Virus record (IMG/VR): IMGVR_UViG_2537562012_000007 | Span: 1 to 40,599 of that record | DNA: 40,599 nt | Source of the DNA: a virus | Taxonomy: Duplodnaviria; Heunggongvirae; Uroviricota; Caudoviricetes | Direction: 5' to 3' (one strand) | Shown here: positions 9,859 to 18,749 of the stretch, one piece after another | Numbering within the stretch: the stretch's first letter is position 1 | How the letters are laid out: every line of letters starts with the position of its first letter | Translations under genes and position numbers: made by a program | Notes under the pieces: model-generated | The model's input: only the letters and a program-made list of their open reading frames with translations | Databases searched by the model: none | Told to the model about the DNA's origin: nothing

Positions 9859-10905
9859 ATGACTAGTGAATCAAATGTTAATGCTCTGATAGAGCGTCAA
9901 TTCGAAGTTGCTGACGGTAATGTAAGAAGTCTTAATTTGCCGAAATATGATAAATATACAGTATGTAATTTACGGGGAGGCATTGGTAAGACATCTTTAA
10001 CTTTTAATCTGTCATATTTGGCGGATAACGCATTAATCGTGGATACGTGCCCGCAAGGAAATTTATCATATTTTTTTGACAATAATTATGCATCTTCGTC
10101 TAGCACAACTGCAAATGACCTCTTAATGCCTTATTTTGTTCCAGGGCTTGGATTTGCAACGCGTGCTGCAAAGCTAGTATCATCAACTAATGCTTGGTTT
10201 GCGGGCAAGAATAACTATTTTATTCAATCTGATAGTCAACTTTATCTTCTACCTACGCAAATGGCGAATGCTCTGGCTCAAGCCAGAACAATTTCTGGGG
10301 CTACTCAGCAGGTTGTTATTGATACAATTCTTTTTTCTCTGAAGAAAGAAATAGCCAGAGAAATGGTTGAAACTGGTACTACAAAAGCGTTAATTGATAC
10401 ATCACCTTTTTTCTCTGGAGCGACGCATTTATCTTGGCATGCAACAGATGCTTTAATAGTTCCAGTGAGGACAGATCAGCAATCGATTAATTCATTAAGA
10501 TTACTTATTGATACTCTGACTAAACCAACATCAGAATTTAGAAAGATAATGCCGTCTGATGGCCATACACCAAAAATTCAGATGGTGGTTATTACCCATT
10601 GCGGATGGTCAACAGTGGCAGGAGCAAGGAATAAACCAAATCAACAGACAAAAATGTACATCGAAGCTGTAAGAGAGGTAATTCGACAAAATATTAGTAA
10701 TTTTACAACAGATGATCCTAATAATCACATTGTGATTCTTGATGATTTTCTGGGTAGTGGCAGAATGTCAAGTGCTAAGTCTAAACCATTAGAGTTGTTA
10801 AATCCAGGAGATGCAATGACTGTGAATAGAGTTAGGACATCCGTGAATTTATCTGTTAACAAAATAAAAAATGAATTAAAGTTCATTCACAACTCCATAT
10901 GGTAA
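9859..10905 (+). CDS. ParA/MinD-family P-loop ATPase with C-terminal extension
   Basis: Deviant Walker A CNLRGGIGKTSLT followed by DTCPQGN, as in ParA/Soj; 348 aa; markedly AT-rich codon usage by eye relative to the phage backbone. Confidence 0.75.
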   Translation: MTSESNVNALIERQFEVADGNVRSLNLPKYDKYTVCNLRGGIGKTSLTFNLSYLADNALIVDTCPQGNLSYFFDNNYASSSSTTANDLLMPYFVPGLGFATRAAKLVSSTNAWFAGKNNYFIQSDSQLYLLPTQMANALAQARTISGATQQVVIDTILFSLKKEIAREMVETGTTKALIDTSPFFSGATHLSWHATDALIVPVRTDQQSINSLRLLIDTLTKPTSEFRKIMPSDGHTPKIQMVVITHCGWSTVAGARNKPNQQTKMYIEAVREVIRQNISNFTTDDPNNHIVILDDFLGSGRMSSAKSKPLELLNPGDAMTVNRVRTSVNLSVNKIKNELKFIHNSIW

Positions 10906-11273: not shown

Positions 11274-11355
11274 TTGGTTGACAAAATTATGAATATGCAC
11301 CAATATCTTGGTTGACAAAAGTCGTTTTTTGCACGGATTAGGCGGAGAAGTGTCT

Positions 11356-11949
11356 ATGCAGAACCATCCATTCCCTTGGGAGTTCTTTCCTGAGTTAACA
11401 GAGGAGCGTTTAACCATTATAGCTGAGGAGTTGCTCAGGATACAGGATATTACTCATGAGTTATTGTCATCGCCCTATGATGATAATTACACTCGTGGTG
11501 GTTGTACATTTGGGCGTCAGCGGCAGGCGTTGCTACAAATGTGCGTACGAAAGACATATGACTGGTTAAGACTACTTAATCCTGGCATGGATCTTACGTT
11601 TTCAATTGGGAATGTCCCTATTCGTTTCTTTACTGATGACGCAGATAACCCCAAGAAACGCGGTTTTTTCAAAAGAAATGATGCTGATCGACTCTTCGAG
11701 TCAGAGGAGACTACTCCAACTATGCATCGCTTTGTGGTTGAAAAGCCTGAATTTGAAGGCGAGGGTGGTAGAGTCATTTTTAATGGCTATAACGTGTTTG
11801 GTGAGATCGTGTCAACTTGGACATATGGTGCGGACCGTGTTGTTATGCTGAACTCTGTCGATGATGTACCTCCAGCACCGGTACCTATCGAACTAGAACC
11901 TATCAGTGCGTCTAAGACTGAGAAGGAAAAGAAACAAAATAGCAAATAG
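11356..11949 (+). CDS. Hypothetical acidic protein (197 aa), accessory cassette
   Basis: ATG at 11356 with GGAG RBS; the TTG at 11308 used by the track lies inside a promoter-like repeat; no recognisable domain. Confidence 0.6.
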   Translation: MQNHPFPWEFFPELTEERLTIIAEELLRIQDITHELLSSPYDDNYTRGGCTFGRQRQALLQMCVRKTYDWLRLLNPGMDLTFSIGNVPIRFFTDDADNPKKRGFFKRNDADRLFESEETTPTMHRFVVEKPEFEGEGGRVIFNGYNVFGEIVSTWTYGADRVVMLNSVDDVPPAPVPIELEPISASKTEKEKKQNSK

Positions 11950-11959
11950 TGGGTGAAAT

Positions 11960-13081
11960 GTGTTTAACGGTACTAATTTAAGACTTGCTCGTCTGTATCA
12001 CGAGCTATCTCTGGAGCAGGTTGCTGAGAAGGTTGAAAAAACACGCCAGTATGTACAGCGACTGGAGTCTGGTTCAGCTACTCCATCCCCAGAGCTTATA
12101 AATAAATTAGCCGAGGTTTTGCGCGTGAAGCCCGCCTTTTTCGAAGGGCAGGAACATTCTCCTGTTAATGAAGAGATTGTACATTTTCGTAAACGCGCCT
12201 CGACAAGGATGTCAACGAAGCTATCAACACTCGCTAAGGCTGAGTTTTATCGTCGTTTTATTGATGTATTTGAAGATAACCTTAATTTGTCACCTGTTCG
12301 ATTTCCTGAATTTCGTGTCCATACACAAGAAGATATCGAGCGAGCGGCAGAAAAATGTCGTATTGAGTGGGGCTTAGGCTTTGGCCCAATTGAAAATATG
12401 ACTCGCCTTGCCGAGAAACTTGGGGCGTTTGTTACTTCATTTGACTCCGTTTCGGATGAAGTAGATGCACTGTCTGTTCCTCTACGAAGGCCTTTTATTG
12501 TTCGAAATACAGCTAAAAATTCACCTTGTAGGCAACGCTTTGATATTGCTCATGAGGTTGCCCATTTGATTCTTCATGAAGGAATTTCTACTGGGGATAG
12601 ATTAACTGAATCCCAGGCAAACCGTTTTGCCTCTGCTCTGTTGCTTCCCAGAACGTCGATGGCGAAATATTTTCCAAGACCTGTGGGGGGGAGGATAAAT
12701 TGGCAGGGACTAAGCCAATTTAAGTTGACATGGAAAGTAAGTAAGGCTGCCATTGTTTACAGGGCTCATCAATTAGGACTTTTGACTGATGAGCAGTACA
12801 GAACTGCATTTATGGGGTTGAAACGGAAAGGGGAAGCTATTGATGAAAAAGAAGATTATCTAATCCCTCATGAGCGTCCTGAGTTATTCCGTCGGGCTTT
12901 ATCGTTTTTATTTGAAGAGTTAGGATACGACCCACAGCGTATAGCTGATGAAATGGATATAGAAGTGGACATTTTTTATGAGTTAGTAGGAGATGATCTT
13001 CCTGCGGTTCATGAACTGCCAGGAAGTGGTGATGTTGTTTCACTACAATCTTACCGAACTCTTAGAGGCAAAATTCACTAG
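11960..13081 (+). CDS. XRE-family HTH fused to ImmA/IrrE-type zinc metallopeptidase
   Basis: N-terminal HTH (LRLARLYHELSLEQVAEKVEKTRQYVQRLESG), central HEVAHLILHE (HExxH) motif typical of ImmA/IrrE (COG2856-like); GTG start. Confidence 0.8.
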   Translation: MFNGTNLRLARLYHELSLEQVAEKVEKTRQYVQRLESGSATPSPELINKLAEVLRVKPAFFEGQEHSPVNEEIVHFRKRASTRMSTKLSTLAKAEFYRRFIDVFEDNLNLSPVRFPEFRVHTQEDIERAAEKCRIEWGLGFGPIENMTRLAEKLGAFVTSFDSVSDEVDALSVPLRRPFIVRNTAKNSPCRQRFDIAHEVAHLILHEGISTGDRLTESQANRFASALLLPRTSMAKYFPRPVGGRINWQGLSQFKLTWKVSKAAIVYRAHQLGLLTDEQYRTAFMGLKRKGEAIDEKEDYLIPHERPELFRRALSFLFEELGYDPQRIADEMDIEVDIFYELVGDDLPAVHELPGSGDVVSLQSYRTLRGKIH

Positions 13082-13108: not shown

Positions 13109-13182
13109 TTTTACGTATTCTGGTTTACAATCTACAGGCCAGCCTGAACAACTGGCACCTGCTGCGCCAGCAGAGAAAACCG

Positions 13183-13455
13183 ATGGCGCACAATACCAAA
13201 CATCACAATTCTGATACCGACCTTGCCAGCTGGCACGGGCGGCGTTCTCATACATTCAAATATGACTGGTACCAGCATGCCCCATGCACTGAAGAACAGG
13301 CCGAATGGCTGATTCAGAACTACCGCAGGCGTGGGTACGACTTTCAGAAAGACCTCGGCCCTGACTTCCGACACTGGATAATTTCTGTCAGGCTCCCTTA
13401 TTCCGAACGCCCACCGCGTCCGTCCCGCACATTCCAGCAACGCATCTGGAGGTAA
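13183..13455 (+). CDS. Hypothetical protein (90 aa), nin-like region
   Basis: ATG-initiated ORF; no recognisable domain. Confidence 0.45.
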   Translation: MAHNTKHHNSDTDLASWHGRRSHTFKYDWYQHAPCTEEQAEWLIQNYRRRGYDFQKDLGPDFRHWIISVRLPYSERPPRPSRTFQQRIWR

Positions 13456-13456
13456 C

Positions 13457-14506
13457 GTGCGGGTATTACTTCGACCTGTTCTGGTGCCGGAACTTGGGGT
13501 GGTTATCGTTAAGCCAGGTCGTGAATCCATGCAGGTATTCCATAACGGCAGAGTGCTGGTTGAACCGGAGCCAAAAAGCATGCGCGGTCTGCCGTCCGGG
13601 GTCGTTCCTGCCGTTCGCCAGCCGCTGGCGGAGGATAAATCATTACTGCCATTTTTCAGCGATGAGCGGGTGATTCGTGCTGCTGGTGGTGCTGGTGCAT
13701 TGTCTGACTGGCTGTTGCGCCATATTAAATCCTGCCAGTGGCCACACGGCGATTATCATCACAGCGAAACCGTCATTCACCGTTATGGTACCGGCGCAAT
13801 GGTGTTGTGCTGGCACTGCGACAACCAGCTGCGTGACCAGACATCCGAATCACTCGAGCAACTTGCTCATCAAAACCTGTCAGCATGGATGATTGACGTC
13901 ATCGGTCACGCAATAAGCGGTACGCAGGAGCGTGAATTATCTCTGGCTGAATTATCCTGGTGGGCGGTCCGCAATCAGGTGGCGGACGCGCTACCGGAAG
14001 CGGTATTACGTCGTTCGCTGGGGTTGCGTGTGGAAAAAATCCGCTCCATGTACCGTGAAAGCGACATCGTACCGGGAGAGCAGACCGCCACCAGCATACT
14101 GAAACAGCGCACAAAAAATCTTGCGCCGCTGCCTCACGCCCACCAGCAACAGAACCCACCACAGGAAAAGACGGTGGTCAGCATTGCCGTTGATCCTGAG
14201 TCTCCGGAATCTTTCATGAAACGACCTAAACGTCGCCGCTGGGTTAACGAGAAATACACTCGCTGGGTGAAGACACAGCCGTGTGCGTGTTGTGGTAAGC
14301 CAGCCGACGATCCCCATCACCTGATTGGTCATGGTCAGGGCGGAATGGGGACAAAATCTCACGATATTTTCACGCTACCGCTGTGTCGGGAGCATCACAA
14401 CGAGCTTCATGCGGATCCGCTGGCGTTCGAAGAAAAGCATGGTTCTCAGGTTGATTTAATTTTTCGTTTTCTTGATCACGCCTTTGCAACTGGCGTGCTT
14501 GGGTAA
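13457..14506 (+). CDS. DUF968-like prophage protein (YdfU-like)
   Basis: 349 aa; C-terminal CxxC ... HH-rich region (CACCGKPADDPHHLIGHGQGG ... CREHHNELH) as in Qin YdfU-type proteins by recollection; GGAGG RBS before the GTG start. Confidence 0.55.
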   Translation: MRVLLRPVLVPELGVVIVKPGRESMQVFHNGRVLVEPEPKSMRGLPSGVVPAVRQPLAEDKSLLPFFSDERVIRAAGGAGALSDWLLRHIKSCQWPHGDYHHSETVIHRYGTGAMVLCWHCDNQLRDQTSESLEQLAHQNLSAWMIDVIGHAISGTQERELSLAELSWWAVRNQVADALPEAVLRRSLGLRVEKIRSMYRESDIVPGEQTATSILKQRTKNLAPLPHAHQQQNPPQEKTVVSIAVDPESPESFMKRPKRRRWVNEKYTRWVKTQPCACCGKPADDPHHLIGHGQGGMGTKSHDIFTLPLCREHHNELHADPLAFEEKHGSQVDLIFRFLDHAFATGVLG

Positions 14507-14518
14507 AAGAGGTGACTG

Positions 14519-14890
14519 ATGCTCATAGATTTGGTTTTACCTTCCCCGCCGACGGTGAACACTTACTGGCGACGCCGTGGCAGCACATATTTTATCTCGG
14601 AGGAGGGAAAGCGTTATCGCCGGGCTGTGGCGCTTATTGTTCGCCAGCAGCGGCTGAAATTAAGCCTGTCCGGAAGGCTGGCGATAAAGGTGATTGCAGA
14701 GCCACCGGATAAGCGCCGCCGCGACCTGGACAATATCCTGAAGGCACCACTGGATGCGCTGACGCATGCCGGACTACTTATAGACGACGAGCAGTTTGAT
14801 GAAATCAATATTGTGCGCGGTCAGCTCGTTCCTGGTGGGCGGCTGGGCGTGAAGATTTGCGAAATCAGAGGCGATGGTAATGGGGCGTGA
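14519..14890 (+). CDS. rusA: Holliday junction resolvase RusA
   Basis: 123 aa; PSPPTVNTYWRR ... DKRRRDLDNILKAPLDALTHAGLLIDDEQ matches the RusA family. Confidence 0.85.
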   Translation: MLIDLVLPSPPTVNTYWRRRGSTYFISEEGKRYRRAVALIVRQQRLKLSLSGRLAIKVIAEPPDKRRRDLDNILKAPLDALTHAGLLIDDEQFDEINIVRGQLVPGGRLGVKICEIRGDGNGA

Positions 14891-15230
14891 TATGTATGAG
14901 GTTTTAGATCGCTGGGGGGCATGGGCTGCAGCAGAAAATAGCGGTGTCGATTGGCAACCGATAGCAGCGGGCTTCAAGGGGCTTTTGCCACATGGCAAAA
15001 AGTCACGTCTCCAGTGTGATGATGATGAAGGCATCATGATAGACGGTTGTGTGGCTCGGTTGCGAAAGGATAAACCAGAGGAATATGAGCTGCTCATAGC
15101 TCACTTTGTTATTGGTGTTTCTCTACGCTCAATCGCGAAGAAACGCAGGTGCTCAGATGGAACTATAAGAAAGGAGCTGCAAACTGCATTAGGCTTTATT
15201 GATGGATGTATATGCTTGATTCTATCATAA
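14880..15230 (+). CDS. Late-gene antiterminator Q (quuD/phage-82 type)
   Basis: MGRDMYEVLDRWGAWAAAENSGVDWQPIAAGFKGLLP...CDDDEG closely resembles DLP12 QuuD as recalled; the start may instead be the ATG at 14874. Confidence 0.8.
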   Translation: MGRDMYEVLDRWGAWAAAENSGVDWQPIAAGFKGLLPHGKKSRLQCDDDEGIMIDGCVARLRKDKPEEYELLIAHFVIGVSLRSIAKKRRCSDGTIRKELQTALGFIDGCICLILS

Positions 15231-15243
15231 GTTATGACTGTTA

Positions 15244-15630
15244 CTACTCGTTTGCTTGAGCTTTCGATTCGGCGTCAGATAAAGCATCAATACGAATATT
15301 TATGTTTTTTAATAGCTTATTGTCTAGATCGATAAGACATTGGTTGTAGTGCGCAATTTGGTCTGGTGTTAGGTTAGGGTTGGCCAGGCAGTTCGTGATG
15401 AATTTTCTGGCCGTTTTTATTTCCCTTTTCATTCTTACATCATTAAGCGTAGGCAAACCTATGTAAGCGATAAGAAGAATTACCACATGAGATAAGCCGA
15501 CAGCAGCTCCAGGCGCCAATGATTTGAAGAAGGCTAATTGAGGAAGCCAGTCAAAAAGGAAATTCAATCCCGCAGTGATAAGGGTGGTAAACCATGCCTG
15601 CATTGCCAGGTAGGATTTAGTGTTCGCCAT
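15244..15630 (-). CDS. Predicted membrane protein (128 aa; two hydrophobic helices), moron operon gene 3
   Basis: GGAAGGTGA RBS; start overlaps the upstream gene stop; hydrophobic segments FTTLITAGLNFLF and GLSHVVILLIAYIGL. Confidence 0.6.
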   Translation of the reverse strand: MANTKSYLAMQAWFTTLITAGLNFLFDWLPQLAFFKSLAPGAAVGLSHVVILLIAYIGLPTLNDVRMKREIKTARKFITNCLANPNLTPDQIAHYNQCLIDLDNKLLKNINIRIDALSDAESKAQANE

Positions 15631-15876
15631 TCACCTTCCTGCACTTGCTTCGTTGCGAGTTTTGAGTTCGCGTAGCAGTAGCGCCAACTCTTCTGCGTCA
15701 TTTTCGTTTCTAACGCTGACTTTCCTTTTAGCGGTTCTGCCTTCAGGATCGGTGTAGGTTAGTTCAATATACGCATTCGGCTTTACCCAAACCAAGAACC
15801 TAAGCACAGCATATCTGACCGTCGCTGCGACAGCCATGAATACAGTGATGTAAAGCATAATGCTTAGGATTGACAT
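15631..15876 (-). CDS. Predicted small membrane protein (81 aa; N-terminal TM), moron operon gene 2
   Basis: AGGAAA RBS; N-terminal hydrophobic helix ILSIMLYITVFMAVAATV. Confidence 0.55.
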   Translation of the reverse strand: MSILSIMLYITVFMAVAATVRYAVLRFLVWVKPNAYIELTYTDPEGRTAKRKVSVRNENDAEELALLLRELKTRNEASAGR

Positions 15877-15879
15877 GAT

Positions 15880-16758
15880 TTAAAGTAGTTTCCTATCTGC
15901 CGCCGCTCTGTGGCGTATAACCTTAGTAATACTATAGCGTGGTTTAGACAGCGCGCCATTTGTTTCTTTTGTTGTTTCTGTCAGTTCTACAACAAAAAGA
16001 TCACCCTTACAGAATGCTGCTTGGTTGTGTTCAACCCGTTCAAGAAAAGCCTCATCTTTCATAGATGCACTAACTTCTTCGCCATTTGGCAGGATGATAT
16101 CCCAGCTTTTGCCTTGCTTGAATCGAACATTAGCAAAATGTACATTAGCTTGGCGTGTCGTTACGTGCGTTTTCTCGACAAAGGTGGATTTTGCAGTTTT
16201 AAAACTTACTGCTTCAGCTTGCGTCACCCTGACTACCTTATGCTTCTGCTGTGAAACTGAGAACGTGGATGGTTTTTCAGTCTGCAGGGGTTTATAGATT
16301 AATTTATCCAGTTCTTTTCGGATGATTGGACTGGTTATTAATTTTTGAATGTCGTTACTGCATTTAACCTTCTCACCATCCACTTCGATTTCTGCTGTAT
16401 CTTTTTGTTCATCGACGACAATGGAGCTGATTTTACGCCCTTTGAGCCATTCGATTATCCCGAGTACGCCACCTGCGGCAACTCCACCACCTGCAACGAG
16501 GCCAAGGGCGTTAATAGTTTTTATGCTCCCCATCACAGCAACAAGCAAAGTAAATGAACCTTCTTTTGTTGCCTTGATGTTGACTTTCGGCTCTGCTGTT
16601 TCGCCATTAATTATTTTTTCGGCGTGTTCAATCAGGGCACTAAGAGAGGTTAAGGCTTCGCCTAATGTTTTCGCGTCGATCTGATTATCTGCGTATGCCT
16701 CTCCACCGTAGGCAATTTCGATTTCTGTTATTGGCATGTTTTCGAGTTGCTGCGTCAT
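15880..16758 (-). CDS. Hypothetical protein (about 292 aa) with central glycine-zipper hydrophobic segment, moron operon gene 1
   Basis: Likely start is the ATG at 16758 (AGGA about 10 nt upstream); the track uses a GTG at 16791; central LGLVAGGGVAAGGVLGIIEW segment. Confidence 0.6.
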   Translation of the reverse strand: MTQQLENMPITEIEIAYGGEAYADNQIDAKTLGEALTSLSALIEHAEKIINGETAEPKVNIKATKEGSFTLLVAVMGSIKTINALGLVAGGGVAAGGVLGIIEWLKGRKISSIVVDEQKDTAEIEVDGEKVKCSNDIQKLITSPIIRKELDKLIYKPLQTEKPSTFSVSQQKHKVVRVTQAEAVSFKTAKSTFVEKTHVTTRQANVHFANVRFKQGKSWDIILPNGEEVSASMKDEAFLERVEHNQAAFCKGDLFVVELTETTKETNGALSKPRYSITKVIRHRAAADRKLL

Positions 16759-16878
16759 CAAAAGCATCCTTTGCGCAAGAGAAATAGCCACAGGATACAG
16801 ATAATTATGAAAAAATCACTAACGCGTACGCAAAAACTATCTTAATCTGTTAAGAGTGGTCGCTTCGCCACACAACTT

Positions 16879-16903
16879 AAACCCGCATCAAGCGGGTTTT
16901 TTT
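16879..16903 (+). terminator. Rho-independent terminator, possibly bidirectional
   Basis: ACCCGC-ATCAA-GCGGGT followed by TTTTTTT; A-rich on the 5' side. Confidence 0.6.
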
Positions 16904-16985
16904 GTGTCACTTATCTCGGATAGACATGGTGAATGCGCTGGTGGAGGAGATAAGGGTGATTTTTAACCAGGTGATTTTTGAATGC

Positions 16986-17014
16986 TTGCAACATTGATTT
17001 CGTAACGTTATTAT
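16986..17014 (+). promoter_or_regulatory. Strong sigma70-like promoter upstream of the tRNA cluster; candidate late promoter (pR' analogue)
   Basis: TTGCAA (16986-16991), 17 bp spacer, TATTAT (17009-17014); predicted start just before tRNA 1. Confidence 0.5.
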
Positions 17015-17023
17015 CCTGCGCCC

Positions 17024-17099
17024 GGCCCTTTAGCTCAGTGGTGAGAGCGAGCGACTCATAATCGCCAGGTCGCTGGTTCAAATCCAGCAAGGGCCACCA
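17024..17099 (+). tRNA. ileZ: tRNA-Ile2-like (anticodon CAU)
   Basis: Manual cloverleaf: acceptor GGCCCTT/AAGGGCC, D-arm GCTC/GAGC, anticodon loop CTCATAA, T-loop TTCAAAT, CCA end; resembles E. coli tRNA-Ile2 more than elongator tRNA-Met by recollection. Confidence 0.8.
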
Positions 17100-17100
17100 A

Positions 17101-17177
17101 CCGCCACTAGCTCATCAGGAAAGAGCGTCAACCCTTTAAGTTGAGTGTGCGAGGTTCGAGTCCCCGGTGGCGGTCCA
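17101..17177 (+). tRNA. tRNA-like gene, anticodon apparently UUU (Lys-like), atypical
   Basis: Acceptor CCGCCAC/GTGGCGG, anticodon stem TCAAC/GTTGA with loop CCTTTAA (C at position 33), T-loop TTCGAGT, CCA end; D-loop lacks the usual GG. Confidence 0.55.
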
Positions 17178-17179
17178 GT

Positions 17180-17255
<76 letters not shown>

Positions 17256-17258
17256 TAT

Positions 17259-17333
<75 letters not shown>

Positions 17334-17540
17334 GTCAGAGTCTTTCAGTCTGCGATGATGGGAAATCCCGGAGTGACTGAAGGACGTTTAAGTTATGAAT
17401 GATCGCCTTTTTTTGCAAAATTGCTGTGCAGAAATACTAACCTTCGGGCAGGCGATCATTCATAAGCACTCTGCTTTTATTCCGATTAACTGTGGGTGGT
17501 TTGTTGGATAGAGTGCTTTCCTTACTGTATATATTGTTTC

Positions 17541-17565
17541 GCCCGCTTTTGCGGGCTTTTCTTTT
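17541..17565 (+). terminator. Rho-independent terminator upstream of the holin gene (candidate tR' analogue)
   Basis: GCCCGC-TTTT-GCGGGC followed by TTTTCTTTTC. Confidence 0.6.
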
Positions 17566-17625
17566 CAAATCCCTTTCATTTCTCAGTGTAAAACTACGCC
17601 ATCCGTTATTTGCGGAGGTGAGGCT

Positions 17626-17841
17626 ATGAAATCCATGGACAAAATTTCAACGGGCATTGCCTATGGCACCTCCGCAGGCAGTGCTGGCTACTGGTTTTTA
17701 CAGTGGCTTGATCAGGTCAGTCCGTCACAGTGGGCTGCGATTGGTGTACTGGGGAGTCTGGTTCTGGGCTTCCTGACTTATCTGACAAATCTGTACTTCA
17801 AAATCAGAGAAGACAAGCGTAAGGCTGCACGGGGAGAGTAA
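17626..17841 (+). CDS. Phage-21-type pinholin S21 (dual-start S71/S68)
   Basis: [30 protein letters not shown]... matches S21 as recalled; Met1 and Met4 (17635) give the antiholin/holin dual-start arrangement. Confidence 0.9.
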
Positions 17842-17845
17842 TTCA

Positions 17846-18160
17846 ATGACTCAAAACTATGAACTGATTGTGAAAGGGATCCGCAATTTTGAGAATAAAG
17901 TTACGGTAACTTTAGCGTTACGGGACAAAAAACGCTTTGACGGTGAAATTTTTGACCTGGACATCTCGCTGGACCGTGTTGAAGGTGCAGCGCTGGAGTT
18001 TTATGAGGCAGCAGCCAGAAGGAGCATCAGACAGGTCTTCCTGGATGTTGCTGCCGGGTTATGTGAAGGGGACGAGCTGTTGCCAGAAACGCGCCCCTGT
18101 TCAGAGGCGCGGTATACCATAAAAATTAACAGTTCTGATAACTCGATTACGGGTTGTTAG
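17846..18160 (+). CDS. Hypothetical protein (104 aa) between holin and endolysin
   Basis: ATG 4 nt after the S21 stop with GGGGAGAG RBS; no recognisable domain. Confidence 0.5.
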   Translation: MTQNYELIVKGIRNFENKVTVTLALRDKKRFDGEIFDLDISLDRVEGAALEFYEAAARRSIRQVFLDVAAGLCEGDELLPETRPCSEARYTIKINSSDNSITGC

Positions 18161-18215
18161 CTTTTTGCAGTTGGCTTTCCAGTATCTTTCATTGGTAGCA
18201 TCCTGATAAATATCC

Positions 18216-18749
18216 ATGAGCGCAAAAATCAAATACGGCCTGTCAGCTGCTGTTCTGGCGCTGATTGCTGCAGGCGCGTCTGCTCCTCAAATACTTGACC
18301 AGTTTCTGGATGAAAAAGAGGGTAACCACACTACGGCATACCGCGATGGTTCCGGTATATGGACCATCTGTCGTGGTGCCACAATGGTGGATGGTAAGCC
18401 CGTCATACCGGGAATGAAGCTGTCGAAGGAAGAATGCGACCAGGTTAACGCCATTGAGCGTGATAAGGCGCTGGCATGGGTGGAGAAAAACATCAAAGTG
18501 CCATTGAGCGAACCCCAGAAAGCGGGTATAGCGTCATTTTGTCCCTATAACATTGGCCCCGGTAAGTGTTTCCCGTCGACGTTTTATAAGCGGCTGAATG
18601 CCGGTGATCGTAAGGGTGCATGCGAGGCGATTCGCTGGTGGATAAAAGATGGTGGGCGCGATTGCCGCATACGTTCAAATAACTGCTATGGACAGGTTAT
18701 TCGCCGTGACCAGGAAGCGGCACTGGTGTGCTGGGGTATCGACAGCTAG
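18216..18749 (+). CDS. Endolysin, T4-lysozyme-like muramidase with N-terminal signal-anchor (SAR)
   Basis: N-terminal hydrophobic LSAAVLALIAAGASA followed by an E-x8-D-x5-T catalytic triad pattern (EGNHTTAYRDGSGIWT); follows a pinholin, as in phage 21. Confidence 0.85.
   Translation: MSAKIKYGLSAAVLALIAAGASAPQILDQFLDEKEGNHTTAYRDGSGIWTICRGATMVDGKPVIPGMKLSKEECDQVNAIERDKALAWVEKNIKVPLSEPQKAGIASFCPYNIGPGKCFPSTFYKRLNAGDRKGACEAIRWWIKDGGRDCRIRSNNCYGQVIRRDQEAALVCWGIDS

What the first reader, a model, noticed from the sequence alone, without database searches (positions are those of the whole stretch)
15244..16860. Translationally coupled three-gene membrane-protein operon on the opposite strand between Q and the tRNA/lysis region, at the locus Shiga toxin occupies in Stx phages
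Seen: three minus-strand ORFs (about 292, 81 and 128 aa) with overlapping or abutting stop/start codons and good RBSs, each with predicted hydrophobic helices, in a segment that looks AT-richer than the neighbours; Q ends only 14 bp from the operon's 3' end, so rightward transcription from Q runs antisense through it. Established: the Q-to-lysis interval is a classic moron site (stx in Stx phages, nmpC in DLP12). Inference: a membrane-targeted accessory module such as superinfection exclusion, abortive infection or a lysogenic-conversion factor; I cannot assign the proteins to a family.
Basis: partly seen in the sequence, partly recalled or inferred. Interest (0 to 1): 0.75.

Follow-up and report, generated by a model that had tools for sequence, protein, structure and literature searches.

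The report
Three-gene prophage anti-phage defence cassette
The three opposite-strand genes are real and form a mobile cassette. Its large protein is a distant relative of mycobacteriophage MichelleMyBell gp29, part of a system known to protect lysogens from other phages, and here it is paired with two small membrane proteins that have not been described.

Summary
Three tightly packed minus-strand genes lie 13 nt beyond Q in an AT-richer insert: A 15880-16758 (292 aa), B 15631-15876 (81 aa), C 15244-15630 (128 aa). All three are under strong purifying selection (dN/dS 0.05-0.08), including B, which RefSeq does not annotate.

A can be placed in a family. It matches PADLOC candidate PDC-S42 (3e-53) and NCBIfam "LAPAL". 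A profile of the family aligns end to end with MichelleMyBell (MMB) gp29 (hhalign E 1e-17, probability 98.9%; shuffles E ≥ 0.1). Gp29 is the toxic component of the validated gp29/gp30 prophage defence, described as abortive-infection-like.

The A-B-C triad is conserved down to about 24% identity of A. It occurs in lambdoid, Mu-like and P2-like prophages, an integrative island, a Vibrio tectivirus-like element, a Pseudomonas megaplasmid and a 6-kb Mob plasmid. In a related E. coli prophage, a paralogous triad sits between the same flanks as the RosmerTA system of this window.

B and C show no detectable homology to gp30. The mechanism is unknown; a membrane-acting abortive infection is my inference. 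A weak EACC1 (pore-former) match did not survive testing. The stx slot lies one position further downstream.

Verdict: a new three-gene variant of a known but poorly understood defence family. Interest is moderate.

The parts
15880..16758 (-). Gene A (292 aa; alternative GTG start at 16791). It belongs to the PDC-S42 / LAPAL / MMB gp29 family. Predicted layout: an N-terminal alpha/beta domain, a central Gly/Ala-rich hydrophobic segment (residues about 69-105), a middle domain and a C-terminal OB-like beta-barrel.
15631..15876 (-). Gene B (81 aa). It has an N-terminal TM helix, a conserved Pro, and a small cytoplasmic beta-hairpin/helix domain (motif YxDxxG). It is not annotated in RefSeq.
   Evidence: ORF and hydrophobicity. 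phrog_27630 8e-57. Conserved downstream of A in all loci. dN/dS 0.06-0.08. Absent from the RefSeq feature table.
15244..15630 (-). Gene C (128 aa). Its N-terminal half is hydrophobic (motif K.YLA.QAW, then a PG.AV TM helix). Its C-terminal half is a long charged helix, probably cytoplasmic.
   Evidence: ORF and hydrophobicity. phrog_26468 7e-89. Conserved as the third gene. dN/dS about 0.06. No Pfam or PADLOC family.
15206..16798 (.). Approximate extent of the inserted cassette DNA (GC 0.40-0.45).
   Evidence: Homology to the Q gene of Stx1a phages stops at 15205. Backbone homology to the Stx1a phage resumes at about 16799-16822. Composition.
16804..16833 (-). Candidate leftward promoter for A-B-C: -35 TTGCGT (16833-16828), an 18-nt spacer, -10 CATAAT (16809-16804). 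Low confidence.
   Evidence: Read from the sequence. It scores 8 of 12, below the scan threshold, and was not reported by the scan. This is inference only.
14874..15230 (+). Antiterminator Q (118 aa), convergent with C across a 13-nt gap.
   Evidence: PF06530 8e-45. 90% amino-acid identity to the Q of Stx1a phage Stx1_14040.
16879..16899 (+). Intrinsic-terminator-like hairpin followed by a T run. It lies in a segment shared with other lambdoid phages just downstream of their Q or cargo slot, and it marks the right-hand edge of the variable slot.
   Evidence: Terminator scan. Alignment with the Stx1a phage and PPompW. A homologous segment follows an ORF6N cargo gene in L002.

Best explanation
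The cassette is a prophage-borne anti-phage defence system. It is a three-gene proteobacterial version of the mycobacteriophage MichelleMyBell gp29/gp30 system, the same family as PADLOC's untested candidate PDC-S42.

Shown here:
- A is a full-length homologue of gp29.
- A is always followed by two co-evolving, translationally coupled small membrane-protein genes.
- The unit moves as cargo between variable slots of unrelated mobile elements, including a slot that otherwise holds RosmerTA.

Taken from the literature on MMB: gp29 is toxic, gp30 is a putative membrane protein, and the prophage cuts Tweety plating by 4-5 logs. Adsorption and DNA injection are said to proceed, so the behaviour is abortive-infection-like.

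Inferred for this locus:
- The lysogen expresses A, B and C from a leftward promoter.
- A, a non-enzymatic cytoplasmic protein, is held inactive at the inner membrane by the cytoplasmic domains of B and C.
- A product of an infecting heterotypic phage, perhaps sensed through A's C-terminal OB-like domain, releases or activates the complex.
- The cell is then arrested or killed, most likely by loss of membrane integrity. Candidates for that step are A's conserved hydrophobic Gly/Ala-rich hairpin and the B/C helices.
For: Homology of A:
- hhalign of the 59-sequence family profile against MMB gp29 gives E 1.2e-17, probability 98.9%, covering A 8-291 and gp29 8-298.
- Fifteen shuffles and the reversed sequence score 17.3 or less, against 115 for the real sequence.
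- The PDC-S42 HMM hits window A (3e-53), MMB gp29 (1.6e-16), Pipsqueaks gp31, Lactobacillus phage A2 ORF19, a Vibrio element and a Pseudomonas megaplasmid.
- Foldseek matches the A model to Pipsqueaks gp31 at E 2.4e-7.
- An independent annotation of the Vibrio homologue reads 'MMB_gp29_gp30__gp29'.

The MMB phenotype comes from PMC11856565, PMC6426606 and PMC8549241.

Conservation and mobility of the triad.

Slot sharing with RosmerTA between identical flanks.

Purifying selection on all three genes.

The family was also flagged independently by guilt-by-embedding in BREX, DISARM and type I RM loci.

The invariant and near-invariant residues are W, F, G, P, D, R and L. I see no catalytic motif among them, and no enzymatic Pfam domain was found.
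Against: - No experiment exists for this cassette or for any proteobacterial member. PDC-S42 is explicitly untested.
- Homology to gp29 is remote: 19% identity in the profile alignment.
- B and C show no detectable homology to gp30, so the partner logic may differ.
- The primary MMB paper could not be read here, so its phenotype is taken from secondary sources.
- Expression in the lysogen is unknown. The candidate promoter is weak and the gene is convergent with Q.
- Phage A2 carries A alone, so the membrane partners are not universal.
- The membrane-disruption step is pure inference. A's hydrophobic segment reaches a TM-like score in only 28 of 59 family members.
Confidence: 0.7

Rival explanations
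1. Superinfection exclusion. B and C, small inner-membrane proteins, block DNA entry of incoming phages with help from A, without killing the cell.
For: Small inner-membrane proteins encoded by prophage morons are typical exclusion factors (established knowledge). B and C are predicted membrane proteins. The cargo distribution fits any anti-phage role.
Against: The homologous MMB system is described as abortive-infection-like, with adsorption and DNA injection proceeding, and gp29 is reported as toxic. The conserved core of the family is the cytoplasmic-looking protein A, not the membrane partners, which are replaced or absent in other lineages.
Confidence: 0.1
2. A toxin-antitoxin-like addiction module. 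A is the toxin and B and/or C the membrane antitoxin. Its main role would be to stabilise the carrying element rather than to defend against phages.
For: Gp29 is reported as toxic and is paired with gp30. One member sits on a 6-kb Mob plasmid and others on integrative islands.
Against: The MMB prophage gives a 4-5 log drop in Tweety plating. The two roles are not exclusive. The cassette occupies slots shared with defence systems.
Confidence: 0.1
3. A is a latent pore-former related to EACC1. Its N-terminal half would be an autoinhibited EACC1-like module that oligomerises into membrane pores once released.
For: A weak Pfam EACC1 match covers the part corresponding to the toxic fragment (E 0.016-0.018). 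The order of secondary-structure elements is similar: beta-alpha-beta-beta-hydrophobic helix-beta-beta-alpha. The EACC1 mechanism is described in bioRxiv 10.1101/2025.11.14.688446.
Against: Only 1 of 59 family members gives the Pfam match, and it is below the gathering score. hhalign against KrEACC1 and against a 7-sequence EACC1 alignment gives E 0.1-0.25, the same as shuffled controls. Foldseek of an EACC1 model finds an A-like viral protein only at rank 9, E 0.049. No protease gene lies in or next to the cassette.
Confidence: 0.08
4. An ordinary phage function: a structural protein, as the NCBIfam name suggests, or a lysis accessory.
For: NCBIfam NF053583 is named 'putative phage structural protein'. 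In an Orbaceae Mu-like prophage the triad lies directly upstream of holin and endolysin on the same strand.
Against: The position and orientation vary between prophages: nin region, Q-proximal slot, and between repressor and gpD. The cassette also occurs on a Mob plasmid, a megaplasmid and an integrative island without virion genes. It is present in only 37 of 5426 E. coli genomes, although the flanking backbone is common. The MMB homologue is a defence gene.
Confidence: 0.02

Closest known systems
MichelleMyBell (MMB) gp29-gp30 prophage-mediated defence (Dedrick et al. 2017; DefenseFinder 'MMB_gp29_gp30')
   Same: A is a full-length homologue of gp29 (hhalign E 1e-17; both hit the PDC-S42 HMM). 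The large gene is followed at once by an overlapping or abutting small membrane-protein gene. The cassette sits in a variable accessory region of a temperate phage.
   Different: Profile identity is only about 19%. There are two downstream genes instead of one. B (1 TM plus a soluble domain) and C (a hydrophobic N-terminal half plus a long helix) show no detectable homology to the 67-aa, 2-TM gp30. The host is a Gram-negative. No phenotype has been tested.
PADLOC PDC-S42 (phage defence candidate from guilt-by-embedding; Payne et al., bioRxiv 2024)
   Same: A matches the PDC-S42 model PDLC05015 at 3e-53, and all 59 sampled family members match it.
   Different: PDC-S42 is defined as a single-gene, untested candidate. 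Here, and in every proteobacterial locus examined, it is a three-gene unit. Its equivalence to MMB gp29 does not appear in the literature I could search.
Lambda RexAB, and Sbash gp30/31 - CarolAnn gp44/43
   Same: The same logic: a cytoplasmic protein of about 280-370 aa plus small membrane protein(s), expressed from a prophage and giving abortive infection. This is established knowledge; the RexAB comparison is.
EACC1 protease-gated pore-forming effector
   Same: The N-terminal half of A has a similar order of secondary-structure elements and a central hydrophobic helix.
   Different: Homology is not supported statistically. There is no associated protease. A carries about 150 extra residues, including an OB-like domain.

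Membership tests
MMB gp29-gp30 defence system | A gp29 homologue is present | tested here: met
   hhalign of A2 against MMB gp29: E 1.2e-17, probability 98.9%, 270 aligned columns. Shuffled controls give E >= 0.11. The PDC-S42 HMM hits both proteins. Foldseek matches Pipsqueaks gp31 at 2.4e-7.
MMB gp29-gp30 defence system | A gp30 homologue (small membrane protein) is encoded immediately downstream | tested here: not met
   Small membrane-protein genes do follow A (B and C). However, hhalign of the B and C family alignments against gp30 gives E 0.08 and 0.17. They are analogous in position and not detectably homologous.
MMB gp29-gp30 defence system | Anti-phage phenotype with abortive-infection behaviour, and toxicity of the gp29 component | not testable with these tools
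   Known only for MMB, and only from secondary sources. The primary paper is not held.
MMB gp29-gp30 defence system | Expression from the prophage during lysogeny | not testable with these tools
   Only a weak candidate promoter (8 of 12) was read from the sequence.
PADLOC PDC-S42 | Match to the PDC-S42 HMMs | tested here: met
   PDLC05015 at 3.3e-53. 59 of 59 family members match.
PADLOC PDC-S42 | Single-gene system | tested here: not met
   The A-B-C triad is conserved in all proteobacterial loci examined. A stands alone only in Lactobacillus phage A2.
NCBIfam NF053583 LAPAL_fam ('putative phage structural protein') | Score above the curated cut-off | tested here: met
   225.3 bits against a cut-off of 60.
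NCBIfam NF053583 LAPAL_fam ('putative phage structural protein') | A structural role in the virion, as the name implies | tested here: inconclusive
   There is no proteomic test. The contexts argue against it: plasmids, an integrative island, variable non-structural slots.
EACC1 (PF19953) | Pfam gathering score reached, and the signal shared across the family | tested here: not met
   15.5 bits against 23.6. Only 1 of 59 members matches. hhalign E 0.1-0.25.
EACC1 (PF19953) | An adjacent activating protease | tested here: not met
   No protease gene lies in or next to the cassette in the window or in related loci.
RexAB-like (DUF4747 protein plus 4-TM partner) | DUF4747 domain in the large protein | tested here: not met
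   No DUF4747 hit in Pfam scans of A or of 59 family members.
Stx-slot moron of lambdoid phages | Located downstream of the late promoter/terminator module, between the tRNAs and the lysis genes | tested here: not met
   The cassette lies between Q and the shared terminator segment, upstream of the tRNAs. In Stx1_14040 the equivalent slot holds another cassette, and stx1AB lies beyond the shared segment.

The most novel reading that the evidence does not exclude
The gp29/PDC-S42 family has about 2,900 clusters at 50% identity across phyla. It may be a widespread class of non-enzymatic abortive-infection effectors. In this reading, the conserved central hydrophobic hairpin is a latent membrane-disrupting element, and lineage-specific small membrane proteins (gp30 in actinophages, B and C in Proteobacteria, none in some Firmicutes phages) act as interchangeable docking or restraining partners. 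The control logic would resemble EACC1 or gasdermin but use no protease.
Probability: 0.2. Interest if true: 0.65.

Novelty: new variant of a known kind. Interest (0 to 1): 0.45.

Why it matters
The result links three annotations that currently stand apart: the untested PADLOC candidate PDC-S42, NCBI's 'LAPAL putative structural protein', and the validated mycobacteriophage MMB gp29/gp30 defence.

It shows that in Proteobacteria the unit has three genes, one of which RefSeq annotation misses.

It also supplies an E. coli (ETEC) representative. The mechanism of the MMB system has stayed unknown since 2017, and this representative could be dissected with standard coliphage panels and genetics.

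Finally, it documents a Q-proximal cargo slot in lambdoid phages that is distinct from the stx slot.

Tried and rejected
- EACC1 homology. The lead came from a Pfam hit at E 0.018. I took the KrEACC1 sequence from the paper's supplement and built a 7-sequence alignment. hhalign gave E 0.1-0.25, no better than shuffles. An EACC1 AlphaFold model had no significant hits in BFVD. Rejected as homology; kept only as a loose analogy.
- DUF7946 (PF25678). It gives sub-threshold matches to the N-terminal half in 23 of 59 members. No literature on it was found.
- B and C. They have no Pfam, PADLOC or NCBIfam family.
- Literature searches for PDC-S42, the LAPAL motif and the WP accessions returned nothing.
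- Tool failures and dead ends:
  - The search for related loci with the diverse alignment failed for lack of a conserved stretch.
  - afdb50 was unavailable.
  - A second word-index protein search with the profile added only four distant members.
  - Dedrick 2017 was not readable.
  - One accession guess was wrong.
- Rfam found only the four tRNAs in 14000-18500.
- The late promoter pR' of this Q type could not be located. The scan's only candidate near the tRNAs (16986-17014) lies downstream of the terminator hairpin.
Full report
**Observation**

The window carries three consecutive minus-strand ORFs at the stated place:
- A, 15880-16758 (292 aa from the ATG; 303 aa from an upstream GTG at 16791)
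- B, 15631-15876 (81 aa)
- C, 15244-15630 (128 aa)

The A stop is separated from the B start by 3 nt, and the B stop TGA abuts the C ATG. A and C have Shine-Dalgarno-like sequences at good spacing. B has only a distant one, so it probably depends on coupling to A.

Q (PF06530, 8e-45) ends at 15230, 13 nt from the C stop. GC is 0.40-0.45 over the cassette, against 0.50-0.56 to its left. Four tRNA genes follow at 17024-17333, and then the lysis genes.

On a Kyte-Doolittle scale:
- B has one N-terminal TM-like helix.
- C has one strong hydrophobic segment preceded by a weaker one.
- A has a single central Gly/Ala-rich hydrophobic stretch (residues 81-105) in an otherwise soluble-looking protein.

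**The genes are real**

RefSeq annotates A and C but not B. Against diverged copies in IMG/VR contigs, all three genes show dN/dS of 0.05-0.08 at dS 0.5-1.4.

The identical cassette is present in 37 of 5426 complete E. coli genomes, several of them named ETEC strains (for example TW10598, B2C and an O6:H16 isolate), always next to this Q.

**Family of A**

A matches the following:
- PADLOC PDC-S42, at 3e-53
- NCBIfam NF053583, 'LAPAL motif-containing putative phage structural protein', at 225 bits against a cut-off of 60
- phrog_3243, function unknown

An exhaustive HMMER search with a 21-sequence profile found 2,918 cluster representatives at E <= 1e-3, nearly all 280-320 aa. All 59 sampled members match PDC-S42.

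PDC systems are untested candidates. They were derived from genes embedded in BREX, DISARM and type I RM loci (bioRxiv 10.1101/2024.01.29.577857).

**The link to a validated system**

A tblastn search of cultured phages found a Vibrio tectivirus-like element whose A homologue carries the depositor's note 'MMB_gp29_gp30__gp29'. I located the mycobacteriophage MichelleMyBell genome, KF986246.1. Its gp29 is 310 aa. Gp30 is 67 aa, overlaps the 3' end of gene 29, and has two TM-like segments.

The evidence for homology:
- The 59-sequence A profile aligns with gp29 over essentially the full length of both: hhalign E 1.2e-17, probability 98.9%, 270 columns.
- Fifteen shuffles and the reversed sequence score no better than E 0.11.
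- The PDC-S42 HMM hits gp29 at 1.6e-16.
- The third-best Foldseek match of my A model in BFVD (E 2.4e-7) is Pipsqueaks gp31, a truncated gp29 homologue.

What the literature says about MMB:
- Gp29 is a toxic protein and gp30 a putative membrane protein; the mechanism is unknown (PMC11856565, citing Dedrick 2017).
- The MMB system behaves like abortive infection, with adsorption and DNA injection proceeding (PMC6426606).
- The MMB prophage lowers Tweety plating by 4-5 logs (PMC8549241).

I could not read the primary paper.

**The triad is the unit in Proteobacteria**

Every locus with sequence downstream of A has a B-like gene and then a C-like gene, usually overlapping or abutting. B-like genes are 71-85 aa, with an N-terminal TM helix, a conserved Pro and a D..G hairpin. 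C-like genes are 108-161 aa, with a hydrophobic N-terminal half and a long charged helix.

| Context |
|---|
| E. coli lambdoid prophages, with the cassette in the nin region on the phage's own strand (A 52% identical) |
| An Orbaceae Mu-like prophage |
| Serratia |
| A 6-kb MobA plasmid (A 37% identical) |
| P2-like prophages of Wohlfahrtiimonas and relatives (A about 24% identical) |
| An Enterobacter integrative island with a serine recombinase and a VapE-like primase |
| Pantoea |
| The Vibrio element |
| Pseudomonas megaplasmids |
| IMG/VR contigs |

B and C diverge faster than A. They have no Pfam or PADLOC family and show no detectable homology to gp30. Lactobacillus phage A2 carries A alone, between its lysin and integrase genes.

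So A is the conserved core of the family, and its membrane partners are lineage-specific.

**Cargo behaviour**

In the related E. coli prophage L002, the paralogous triad lies between the same backbone flanks (the hok 3' region on one side, the 90-aa gene and DUF968 on the other) that enclose RmrT and RmrA in this window. RmrT scores 7e-93 and RmrA 4e-201 in PADLOC, which together identify a RosmerTA system.

The Q-proximal slot is also variable:
- A Stx1a phage whose Q is 90% identical carries a different, unknown three-gene reverse cassette there. An ~85-nt segment shared with window 16822-16905 follows, including the terminator-like hairpin at 16879-16899, and only then stx1AB.
- L002 has an ORF6N gene between Q and the same segment.

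The cassette therefore sits one slot upstream of the stx position.

**Structure and mechanism**

AlphaFold2 (pLDDT 76, pTM 0.60) predicts four parts for A:
- an N-terminal alpha/beta domain
- the low-confidence hydrophobic segment
- a middle beta/alpha domain
- a C-terminal beta-barrel

The invariant or near-invariant residues are W219, F238, L32, G67, G86, R147, P157 and D235. I see no catalytic motif among them.

The segment between the conserved EGSF and KxLKGRK motifs is the most hydrophobic part of all 59 members (median score 1.56, against 0.83 elsewhere). It reaches a TM-like score in only 28 of them.

From this and the MMB phenotype I infer the following mechanism. None of it is shown.
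- A is a non-enzymatic sensor and effector, held at the membrane by the cytoplasmic domains of B and C.
- A phage product triggers it.
- It then causes growth arrest or death through membrane damage.

**The EACC1 lead**

Pfam gave a sub-threshold EACC1 match on A (E 0.018). EACC1 is a protease-released pore-former. The order of secondary-structure elements in a KrEACC1 model resembles that of A's N-terminal half. The rest of the evidence is negative:
- Only 1 of 59 family members shows the Pfam match.
- hhalign E values of 0.1-0.25 equal those of shuffled controls.
- Foldseek cross-matching is not significant.
- There is no protease nearby.

I treat this as an analogy at most.

**Transcription**

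No terminator-like site lies in the 13-nt Q-C gap. Read-through from pR through Q into the cassette in antisense, and of the cassette transcript into Q, is therefore plausible but untested.

A weak candidate leftward promoter (TTGCGT, 18 nt, CATAAT; 16833-16804) lies upstream of A. I could not locate the late promoter for this Q type.

**Verdict**

The locus is a new three-gene variant of a known but mechanistically unsolved prophage defence family. Interest is moderate. The main value is the link between PDC-S42, LAPAL and MMB gp29, together with a tractable E. coli representative.

Noticed in passing
window 11308-13081 (+): A complete RosmerTA system sits in the nin-region slot of the same prophage: RmrT 11308-11949 (PADLOC 7e-93) and RmrA 11960-13081 (HTH plus M78 peptidase, 4e-201). 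In the related prophage L002, a paralogue of the A-B-C cassette occupies this slot between the same flanks.
   Followed up: yes
window 15631-15876 (-): Gene B (81 aa) is missing from the RefSeq annotation of identical prophages, despite dN/dS 0.06-0.08 and conservation in all related loci. This is an annotation gap.
   Followed up: yes
window 16856-16966 (+): RefSeq annotates a 36-aa 'antiterminator' CDS here. It overlaps a terminator-like hairpin (16879-16899) in a non-coding segment shared with other lambdoid phages downstream of their Q, and it does not resemble the C-terminus of the Q at 14874-15230. It is probably not a gene.
   Followed up: partly
L041/L042 (Stx1a phage Stx1_14040, LC567819.1 13620-15727): A different three-gene minus-strand cassette (350, 130 and 220 aa) fills the same Q-proximal slot, upstream of stx1AB. 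It has no Pfam or significant PADLOC match, so it is another candidate unknown accessory system.
   Followed up: partly
L001 1479-2973 (E. coli E66 prophage): This prophage matches the window at 98.4% identity from window 13166 to 17334. It carries a Ser/Thr kinase plus PP2C phosphatase gene pair upstream of hokD, in the region where the window has other cargo.
   Followed up: no
window 17024-17333 (+): An array of four tRNA genes (CAT, Lys-TTT, Thr-TGT, Gly-TCC) lies between the terminator segment and the holin. ARAGORN calls the CAT tRNA Met; RefSeq calls the corresponding gene Ile.
   Followed up: no
window 17334 onward vs L001: Near-identity to the E66 prophage stops right after the tRNA array. 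The lysis modules differ: the window has a 177-aa lysozyme-like ORF at 18216-18749, whereas E66 has an M15 peptidase. This points to a mosaic joint at the tRNAs.
   Followed up: no
window 9859-10905 (+): A 348-aa ORF upstream of RosmerTA has only a weak PADLOC match (PRTase_III-A, 1e-4). Its identity is unresolved.
   Followed up: no
L059 / L060 (MichelleMyBell vs Pipsqueaks): Pipsqueaks gp31 is a 184-aa N-terminally truncated copy of MMB gp29, identical over the shared part, and is still followed by an identical gp30 homologue. This may be a decayed or differently started version of the system.
   Followed up: no
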